This document shows, piece after piece, positions 10,348-11,092 of a DNA stretch of 64,000 nt. Source of the stretch: Squalus acanthias (Eukaryota); the NCBI GenBank assembly GCA_030390025.1, contig CM059432.1:21144001-21208000 (forward strand), given 5' to 3'. Each line of letters opens with the position of its first letter. Position 1 is the stretch's first letter. The position numbers were made by a program, and so were the translations under genes. Below the pieces are notes generated by a model that was not told the DNA's origin, made no database searches, and worked only from the letters and a program-made list of their open reading frames with translations.

Positions 10348-11092
10348 GGCCCAGATATTCCGATCGCAGGCCTCCCGCGGGCGGAGGACTGCGATCTGGA
10401 AAAATCTGCGCCCTTACCTGAGGGCTCCCGGGACGCGCACAATTCCGCTGCTGGGCCTCTCCAAACCGCAGGTGCGCAGGGCCCACGTATCCCAGAGGCG
10501 CAGGTAGTTCGCAGCGTCCCTGGGATCACGTGGGCCATGGGGAGCCAATCACAGAAGGGAATCTCCCTTCATGCATTTGACAGGAAGACCTGTCAAATAT
10601 ATGAAGAGATCACCCCCAAAACATAGTAAAACTTAAAAAAAAAAATCACATTTTTAAAATGACTTGAAATTACAATAAATTAACTATTAAACAAAAATTT
10701 TAATTTTTGAAAAATATAATTAAAGTTTTTTACGGGGCTAAAAATAAACTTACCTTTTTTTTTGAAGTATTTTTAAATGATAAATCAGTGAAAACATTTT
10801 TTTTTACTTTTTTCAACTCTTATCCTGGTAAAAGCAGGCCTTACGCCTGCTTTTACCAGGCGCAAGAATTGTAAGTGTTTTCTGCGGGCGGAGGGTCTCC
10901 AAAAAGCGGAACTATCCGCCCGTAGAGGCCCTTCTCCAGTGCAGCCGGAGGATCTGTCAAGAACTTTCTTGACCGATCGGAAATGTCGGTTTTCAGCGCC
11001 TGCGCGGTGCATGCCTGAAACCGGCATTTCCGATGTCCCTACGGGTGGGTACACAGCGCGTACCCACCCGTAGGGATCGGAATATCCGGCCC
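10348..11092. mobile_element. Multi-hairpin MITE, copy A
   Basis: 18-bp TIR (16/18) ggcccagatattccgatc / gatcggaatatccggccc; four internal stem-loops; homologous to 50195-50934. Confidence 0.8.

What the first reader, a model, noticed from the sequence alone, without database searches (positions are those of the whole stretch)
10348..11092. MITE family whose internal hairpins covary between copies (copy A here, copy B 50195-50934)
Seen: the two copies are well diverged but keep stem-loops at the same positions. The last hairpin is tacGGGTGGGtac-acagcgc-gtaCCCACCCgta in A (17-bp perfect stem, 11036-11076) and tacGCGAGAGtac-acagtgc-gtaCTCTCGCgta in B (13-bp perfect, 50882-50914): three paired substitutions, nearly the same loop. 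The first hairpin is ttcatgcatttgacagg/cctgtcaaatatatgaa in A (10568-10605) and a perfect 18-bp attcatagctttcacagc/gctgtgaaagctatgaat in B (50406-50444). A also has a perfect 16-bp stem with loop cttac (10824-10860; loop kept, stem degenerate in B) and an approximately 20-bp stem at 10976-11034 whose outer pairs differ but still pair in B. Inference: cut-and-paste MITEs need only their ends, so structure conserved over sequence suggests a functional ssDNA/RNA fold, dyad protein-binding sites, or systematic arm-to-arm template-switch correction. This is the best candidate for an undescribed system here.
Basis: partly seen in the sequence, partly recalled or inferred. Interest (0 to 1): 0.7.

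Follow-up and report, generated by a model that had tools for sequence, protein, structure and literature searches.

The report
Harbinger-type MITE with covarying palindromes
This is an old copy of a very abundant miniature cut-and-paste transposon whose chain of internal palindromes changed in matched pairs between subfamilies, most likely as paired protein-binding sites of the mobile ancestors, and which has been decaying since it landed here.

Summary
The hairpins are real and at the quoted places. Public-run contigs show that A is one copy of a very abundant family, with ends exactly at 10348/11092, GG-starting TIRs and an A-W-T target. That fits a non-autonomous PHIS (PIF/Harbinger-like, Pangu-type target) MITE. 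A and B are diverged subfamilies (66% identical), not sister copies. Covariation holds: 12 of 15 double changes in five hand-anchored stems are compensatory; unbiased tests give P=0.011 and 0.0004, while a looser null gives 0.10. The pairing belongs to the master elements. All 3 listed family-majority letters that fall in stems restore pairs, A's stems have decayed at about the flank rate, and G-T versus A-C mismatches show no strand bias. The paired changes largely swap one subfamily-specific repeated motif for another, which suggests dyad binding sites for the Myb-like partner protein (inferred, not shown). A second family in the window covaries similarly. The scan held no look-alike of this sequence, but earlier AI notes report Harbinger MITEs in this genome and covarying hairpins in bacterial IS5-type MITEs. 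Only two alignable sequences were available.

The parts
10348..11092 (.). Copy A: full-length 745-nt non-autonomous PHIS-type MITE
   Evidence: Summed contig depth is 4-44 in flanking bins and 4e4-1.5e6 in bins inside; loose ends at 10347 and 11093/11094 in all 4 runs; TIR match 12 of 14
10345..10347 (+). Left target triplet ATT (the right one, 11093-11095, is ATA; 2 of 3 match)
   Evidence: family-wide loose-end consensus reads A-A-T or A-T-T (table 7)
10348..10365 (+). 5' TIR of A, starting GG and containing the subfamily motif ATCGGAA on the minus strand
11075..11092 (-). 3' TIR of A
10362..10396 (.). Stem S0 (14 bp); a copy of the A motif RCGGGYGG starts in its loop at 10377
   Evidence: poorly alignable to B
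10489..10526 (.). Stem S1; one G-C to C-G compensatory change against B 50327-50364
10527..10549 (+). CACGTG and AGCCAAT, kept in B (50365, 50381); E-box and CCAAT-box labels are recalled; probable promoter relic of the autonomous parent (inference)
10564..10609 (.). Stem S2 (21 bp); 3 compensatory transversions against B 50407-50443; family-majority A at 10573 restores a pair
10610..10815 (.). AT-rich core (139 of 206 identical to B) with a minus-strand AGGTAAG splice-donor-like word at 10749-10755
10824..10860 (.). Stem S3 (16 bp perfect, loop CTTAC); loop kept, stem degenerate in B
10881..10926 (.). Stem S4; both arms carry RCGGGYGG; majority C at 10923 restores a pair; G-C to C-G change against B 50735-50773
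10951..10978 (.). Stem S5; majority A at 10974 restores a pair; not kept in B
10976..11034 (.). Stem S6 (17 bp); arms carry the TIR word ATCGGAA; the centre becomes GCGCATGCGC with majority A at 11000 (NRF1-like, label recalled)
11036..11076 (.). Stem S7 (17 bp perfect); arms carry RCGGGYGG where B carries YGCGAG; 3 compensatory changes and none one-sided in the inner 13 bp
50195..50934 (.). Copy B: 740-nt member of a related subfamily; flanks AAT / ATT; stems at 50327-50364, 50406-50444, 50735-50773, 50820-50878 and 50882-50914; motif YGCGAG 5 times
48551..49337 (.). Element C: second GG-ended family with the same hairpin-chain anatomy, exact AAT/AAT duplication and a 22-bp perfect stem at 49124-49172
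25854..26507 (.). Element D: relative of C, exact ATT/ATT duplication, TIR match 13 of 14

Best explanation
[quoted passage not shown] The chain of internal palindromes was a property of the active master elements at the DNA level. Many arms are inverted pairs of a short subfamily-specific recognition word that is also scattered through both subterminal regions and the TIR (A: RCGGGYGG and ATCGGAA; B: YGCGAG). When a master lineage's word changed, both arms changed. The new letter was probably copied to the opposite arm by replication or gap-repair template switching, and kept because symmetric sites made the element easier to mobilise. After insertion nothing protects the pairing and it decays. 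Shown: element ends, abundance, target triplet, covariation between A and B, decay of copy A, subfamily-specific motifs. Inferred: the identity of the mobilising proteins, that the motifs are their binding sites, and template switching as the copying route.
For: Ends, abundance and the A-W-T target. Exact AAT/AAT and ATT/ATT duplications on two further GG-ended elements; ANT target with GG ends describes Pangu-type PHIS elements (PMC4482050). Five hand-anchored stems, 60 pairs: 41 same, 12 compensatory (10 transversions, so not CpG decay), 4 one-sided, 3 double but broken. Permutation tests on the MAFFT alignment: 9 compensatory of 106 A-defined pairs against 4.15 expected (P=0.011), and 9 of 80 B-defined pairs against 2.86 (P=0.0004). 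Of the 11 in-element majority letters listed, 3 fall in stems and all 3 restore a pair. A has 9 of 122 stem pairs broken (3.7% per letter), against 4.4-5.8% divergence between the window and orthologous flank contigs of three other organisms. RCGGGYGG occurs 5 times in A and 0 in B, ATCGGAA 4 and 0, YGCGAG 0 and 5. 9-mers recurring at 3 or more separate places: A 11 against 3.4 in shuffles (P=0.024), B 23 against 2.7 (0 of 500 shuffles). No G-T/A-C strand bias. A weak Myb/SANT remnant sits in a related GG-ended element: Myb_DNA-bind_5 E=0.036, below cut-off, with Atlas hits under 0.9 all in Myb/MADF families.
Against: Only two alignable sequences were available, so no R-scape-type test was possible. 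With a pooled-rate null the compensatory count is not significant (9 against 5.5, P=0.10). The 12-of-15 count uses hand-placed anchors and 5 of the 8 stems. The motifs were picked after looking; exact direct repeats are only marginal (P=0.034 and 0.071 for longest, 0.28 and 0.74 for number), and the best 9-mer's number of places is not significant (P=0.09, 0.06). Stems S1 and S2 covary without carrying the repeated motif, and 13-18-bp perfect stems are longer than a 6-9-bp Myb site needs. No autonomous partner with these TIRs was found, and no ORF in A or B matches a transposase or Myb family. One search hid 171 of 211 difference rows, so the 3-of-3 restoration rests on the listed part. The 3.7% figure is biased low because stems were chosen for pairing.
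Confidence: 0.5

Rival explanations
1. Purely mutational origin. Quasi-palindromes in the masters were perfected and re-perfected by template switching during replication or post-excision gap repair, with no selection on the internal stems.
For: Template switching can create perfect hairpins and multiple compensatory changes in one event, and the intra-strand type keeps the loop (bioRxiv 10.1101/2021.04.15.439925, passages). Several compensatory changes cluster per stem. Loops are no more conserved than non-hairpin sequence (52 of 86 against 247 of 418). Three of 8 stems are dispensable in B.
Against: It does not explain same-strand, unpaired repeats of the subfamily words hundreds of bases apart, nor why the same GGG-to-GCG change occurs in two different hairpins, S4 and S7. 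Resident copy A shows no sign of correction, so the process would have to be tied to transposition. The same preprint calls the evidence for maintenance of short stems circumstantial.
Confidence: 0.22
2. The fold itself is what matters. Cruciforms or single-strand DNA hairpins shape the transpososome, exclude nucleosomes or stabilise a repair intermediate, so selection on the masters keeps pairing regardless of sequence.
For: Long perfect stems, 10 of 12 compensatory changes being transversions, stems S1 and S2 covarying without the repeated motif, and very strong DNA folding. The same anatomy with paired changes appears in the second family. Earlier, unchecked AI notes report similar covarying arms in IS5-derived bacterial MITEs. 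The mPing study found internal promoting regions that share no specific sequence.
Against: No single-strand step is known for DDE cut-and-paste transposition (general knowledge). Individual stems come and go between A and B. Loops are not specially conserved. The arm changes track dispersed motifs.
Confidence: 0.15
3. The hairpins work as RNA, in the 5' leaders of the parent element's transcripts, as small-RNA precursors, or as a host-exapted structured RNA.
For: Promoter-like words and minus-strand splice-donor words (2 in A, 3 in B) suggest these arms were once transcribed leaders. One G-T pair in S1 appears to be shared with a loose-end variant (table 7; a single case).
Against: No G-T excess on either strand. 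No Rfam match at gathering threshold. Copy A decays at about the flank rate, which argues against a host function for this copy. Compensation goes mostly through transversions that have no G-U intermediate.
Confidence: 0.1
4. The apparent covariation is an alignment or selection artefact of comparing two unrelated palindrome-rich elements.
For: The pooled-rate null gives P=0.10, and the 5' 120 nt of A and B barely align.
Against: E 2e-57 collinear homology including the non-palindromic core; permutation P=0.011 and 0.0004; S7 alone about 5e-5.
Confidence: 0.03

Closest known systems
Pangu group of the PHIS superfamily (Han et al. 2015, PMC4482050; passages and Results part 1 of 2 read)
   Same: 3-bp ANT target, TIRs starting GG, short TIRs (11-40 bp).
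   Different: The 15 genomes listed there include no vertebrate, and the survey was transposase-based and says MITEs may be missed. No transposase could be placed here, so the group is assigned by ends only. Internal palindromes were not among the passages read.
Harbinger3_DR / Harbinger3N_DR of zebrafish (seen through passages of PMC9710019 and PMC2836001; the primary paper PMC2290759 is not held)
   Same: Two-protein PHIS system in a vertebrate; the Myb-like protein recognises a short motif in the subterminal regions, the role proposed here for the repeated words.
   Different: Different target triplet (CWG, recalled) and motif. No chain of 13-22-bp covarying stems is described in the passages read.
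Tourist-type MITE mPing (PMC9921582, abstract and passages; PMC2836001, passages)
   Same: Non-coding PIF/Harbinger MITE whose internal sequence tunes mobility.
   Different: Plant element with a TWA-type target; the internal effects were linked to GC content and possibly nucleosomes, and 'palindrom' and 'secondary structure' do not occur in PMC9921582.
ISL2EU (PMC4482050)
   Same: GG ends; copy B's flanks alone fit its A|AT|T target.
   Different: Family-wide flanks of A read A-A-T about as often as A-T-T, and elements C and D have 3-bp duplications, so a 2-bp AT duplication does not fit.
Chompy MITEs of crocodilians (recalled from memory; one search listed only single mentions, not read)
   Same: As recalled: abundant vertebrate Harbinger-type MITEs with a tendency to form secondary structure.
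   Different: No sequence comparison was possible; covariation between subfamilies is not recalled for them.

Membership tests
MITE (non-autonomous TIR DNA transposon) | Short, with terminal inverted repeats at the true ends | tested here: met
   745 and 740 nt; TIR match 12 of 14 each; ends confirmed by loose ends at 10347 and 11093/11094
MITE (non-autonomous TIR DNA transposon) | High copy number | tested here: met
   19,047-40,828 contigs laid per run, with summed depth thousands of times the flanks (the tool warns this is no exact copy number)
MITE (non-autonomous TIR DNA transposon) | No coding capacity | tested here: met
   None of the frames of 55 aa or more over A and B has a transposase or Myb match; the one weak hit there was a RING-like domain below cut-off
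PHIS, Pangu group | 3-bp ANT target duplication | tested here: met
   Family flanks A-A-T or A-T-T; exact in C and D; one mismatch each in A and B; no empty site seen
PHIS, Pangu group | TIR begins AG or GG | tested here: met
PHIS, Pangu group | Autonomous partner with a Pangu-clade DDE transposase | not testable with these tools
   No genome held; no partner in the window
PIF/Harbinger in the strict sense | TWA target duplication | tested here: not met
   Flanks are A-W-T, not T-W-A
PIF/Harbinger in the strict sense | Myb/SANT second gene in the parent element | tested here: inconclusive
   Only a sub-threshold Myb remnant in a different GG-ended family at 39342-39446
ISL2EU | 2-bp AT duplication in A|AT|T | tested here: not met
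   Loose ends behind 11093 (second flank base not T): 112, 244, 260 and 324 contigs, against 101, 249, 242 and 242 behind 11094
Structured non-coding RNA | Match to a curated RNA family | tested here: not met
   0 Rfam matches at gathering threshold in the window
Structured non-coding RNA | Strand-biased G-U tolerance | tested here: inconclusive
   G-T 11 against A-C 10 over four elements; small numbers
Structured non-coding RNA | Discrete expressed RNA | not tested
   The single lay call went to four DNA-type contig sets; only contigs, which cannot show strand or ends, were on offer

The most novel reading that the evidence does not exclude
A widespread class of PHIS/IS5-lineage MITEs is selected for a chain of folded-DNA structures (cruciforms or single-strand hairpins) that the transposition or gap-repair step requires. 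Vertebrate ANT-targeting elements would then share with bacterial IS5-derived MITEs a structure-based, sequence-flexible mobilisation signal not described for cut-and-paste transposons in the papers searched.
Probability: 0.15. Interest if true: 0.75.

Novelty: new variant of a known kind. Interest (0 to 1): 0.4.

Why it matters
How Harbinger-type elements keep their Myb-like protein matched to their own ends is known from one reconstructed zebrafish element. A genome holding many subfamilies, each with its own repeated word set in mirrored pairs, is a natural series for testing co-evolution of binding protein and site, and for measuring template switching in transposon masters. An abundant ANT-targeting family in what appears to be a shark also speaks to two gaps in print: Han et al. 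listed no vertebrate Pangu host, and Harbingers were reported absent from elephant shark with a request to examine other cartilaginous fish (PMC9179366, passages). Repbase and Dfam could not be checked and may already hold these consensus sequences. For the host, this particular copy looks like neutral intronic or intergenic DNA.

Tried and rejected
No whole genome is held, so all-copy alignment and R-scape-type tests were impossible. Pattern scans for further copies found 0 in viral contigs, 0 in two metagenome scans and 0 in prokaryote genome contigs. The scan's own index had no look-alike sequence and no note holding all of the 'shark MITE covary' words. No RNA holder on record was listed; this says nothing about expression. 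Rfam gave 0 matches. Pfam on 86 frames from 13 chosen regions (of 126 listed; LINE, tandem-repeat and some flanking frames were left out) gave no transposase or Myb hit. The idea that loops are specially conserved was rejected: 52 of 86 against 247 of 418, Fisher P=0.90. The pooled-rate null for compensation was not significant. Exact direct-repeat tests were marginal. The Atlas could not name the exon at 7636-8289. Ten literature searches listed no paper on covarying internal palindromes in vertebrate Harbinger-type MITEs; the library lacks most subscription journals, Repbase Reports and Dfam. PMC5753468 has no 'palindrom' or 'hairpin'. PMC9435742 was seen as abstract and opening text only, and the term search in it was empty. 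No supplements were opened; Table S3 of Han et al. (Pangu family list) could bear on the claim that no vertebrate host is listed.

Full report
Setting. The window is vertebrate DNA rich in LINE-type reverse-transcriptase fragments (CR1/L2 labels recalled). A long exon-like frame at 7600-8292 ends in a splice-donor word on the + strand. I recall it as resembling the cytoplasmic tail of an ADGRB/BAI receptor, but Pfam and the Atlas did not name it. Earlier AI notes call this genome a shark, which matches my impression and was not tested.

Observation. Perfect stems of 10 bp or more number 20 in the window, 6 of them TA microsatellite, against 0-2 in five block shuffles. A and B align at 65.7% over 636 columns, E 2e-57, and no third alignable copy is in the window. 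Both fold far better than shuffles as single-stranded DNA (z -14.3 and -8.6). A carries eight GC-rich hairpins covering 327 of 745 nt, on either side of an AT-rich core.

What the element is. Contigs of four public runs (the window's organism and three relatives) were laid on 9990-11489 at 80% likeness. Between 19,047 and 40,828 contigs per run lay there. Summed depth is 4-44 in flanking bins and 4e4-1.5e6 inside the element. Loose ends pile up before 10347 and behind 11093/11094, fixing the ends at 10348 and 11092. The loose letters read A-A-T or A-T-T, in similar numbers on the right side. Two further GG-ended elements in the window have exact AAT/AAT (48551-49337) and ATT/ATT (25854-26507) duplications. 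GG ends with an ANT target describe the Pangu group of the PHIS superfamily, whereas strict PIF/Harbinger uses TWA and ISL2EU uses A|AT|T (PMC4482050). No coding frame in A or B matches a transposase or Myb family. A related GG-ended element holds a weak Myb/SANT remnant (E 0.036, under the cut-off; Atlas scores 0.75-0.82, all named hits Myb/MADF). The element is therefore a MITE, and PHIS-type by its ends; the group cannot be confirmed without a transposase.

A and B are subfamilies. Of the 19,047 contigs laid from the same organism, 15,812 are at least 90% alike to the window stretch (short pieces), whereas B is 66% identical and has a different TIR. The insertion of A is old. By the tool's 31-letter rule, flank contigs bridge the right junction in organisms B, C and D and the left junction in D (table 8), and these contigs differ from the window by 4.4-5.8%.

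Covariation. In five hand-anchored stems (60 pairs), 41 pairs are identical, 12 are compensatory, 4 changed on one side and 3 changed on both sides without pairing in both; 10 of the 12 are transversions. That count depends on my anchors and omits three stems, so I repeated it on the MAFFT alignment with pairs defined from one sequence only. With all 8 A-defined stems (106 pairs) 9 are compensatory. A null using pooled substitution rates expects 5.5 (P=0.10), and a permutation of the observed right-arm letters expects 4.15 (P=0.011). With 6 B-defined stems (80 pairs), 9 are observed against 2.86 (P=0.0004). The last hairpin alone has a chance of about 5e-5. The signal is real but concentrated in five stems; S0, S3 and S5 are degenerate or unalignable in B. 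The second family shows the same behaviour by inspection: the small 3' hairpin keeps pairing with different letters in C, D and G, and a larger stem is perfect in C and decayed in F and D.

Where the pairing was maintained. One search listed 40 of 211 difference rows, 11 of them inside the element, where most family contigs differ from A. Three of these fall in stems and all three restore a Watson-Crick pair (10573, 10923, 10974). A has 9 of 122 stem pairs broken, 3.7% per letter, a figure biased low. Half the ortholog divergence, 2.2-2.9%, is a floor for neutral change since insertion. Copy A thus behaves as an unprotected relic of a more perfect master, and its two still-perfect stems are unremarkable at 2-4% decay (joint chance 0.07-0.26). 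Mismatches inside stems split evenly between G-T and A-C on the + strand (11 against 10 over four elements), which gives no hint of an RNA strand. Loops are not more conserved than other sequence. Rfam has no match.

Mechanism. The paired changes are not arbitrary. In S7 they turn A's word RCGGGYGG into B's word YGCGAG, and the same G-to-C change occurs in S4. RCGGGYGG occurs five times in A and never in B, the TIR word ATCGGAA four times in A and never in B, and YGCGAG five times in B and never in A, including same-strand copies far apart. These words were chosen after looking. A blind test, counting the two arms of a hairpin as one place, still finds an excess of 9-mers at three or more places (A P=0.024; B 0 of 500 shuffles), although the best single 9-mer is not significant and exact direct repeats are marginal. 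Template switching can copy one arm onto the other and keep the loop (bioRxiv 10.1101/2021.04.15.439925). The most economical reading is mirrored binding sites in the active masters, homogenised by template switching and kept by selection for mobilisation (0.5). This leaves unexplained why stems reach 13-22 bp and why S1 and S2 covary without the motif, so a purely mutational origin (0.22) and a requirement for folded DNA (0.15) remain open; RNA function is less likely (0.1).

Novelty. Ten searches listed no description of covarying internal palindromes in vertebrate Harbinger-type MITEs, but repeat databases and most subscription journals were out of reach. Earlier AI notes, which I did not check, describe Harbinger MITEs elsewhere in this genome and covarying hairpin arms in IS5-derived bacterial MITEs, so the trait may recur across the lineage. 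Verdict: a real feature and a new variant of a known kind of element, interest 0.4.

Noticed in passing
window 16212-18004 and 38952-39877: Two GG-ended elements (83% identical over 924 nt) hold a frameshifted Myb/SANT-like remnant behind CCAAT-like and TGACGTCA words; the best fragment scores E 0.036 to Myb_DNA-bind_5.
   Followed up: partly
window 48551-49337, 25854-26507, about 33810-34050, 17700-18003: Second family (C, D, F, G) sharing a 3' arm, with its own repeated word GGCGGG (6 in C, 6 in D) and hairpins that change in pairs; 22-bp perfect stem at 49124-49172.
   Followed up: partly
window 10749-10755, 50600-50736, 48932-49008: Clusters of AGGTRAG splice-donor-like words: minus strand in A (2) and B (3); one plus and three minus in C. 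The loop CTTAC of stem S3 reads GTAAG on the minus strand.
   Followed up: no
window 7600-8292: 230-aa open exon-like frame ending at a GTAAG donor; recalled as resembling an ADGRB/BAI cytoplasmic tail, unnamed by Pfam and the Atlas.
   Followed up: partly
window 5946-6063: Small GG-ended fold-back element (31-nt arms, 77% complementary).
   Followed up: no
window 9481-9538 and nearby: 24-bp imperfect hairpin in a GC-rich stretch about 800 nt upstream of A, probably another decayed element of the same kind.
   Followed up: no
window 55201-56243 and 58235-59277: 1043-nt inverted pair of LINE-type 3' fragments, 95% complementary and 1991 nt apart, with 63-nt tandem arrays at 55003-55199 and 56949-57191.
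   Followed up: no
window 44326-45270: Tandem array with a period of about 59-65 nt, open in three frames.
   Followed up: no
window 24760-24801, 36723-36759, 13344-13377: Isolated perfect stems of 15, 16 and 13 bp outside the families studied.
   Followed up: no
window 10348-11092 and 50195-50934: CpG observed/expected is 0.99 and 1.03 in A and B against 0.44 for the window, high for insertions this old.
   Followed up: no
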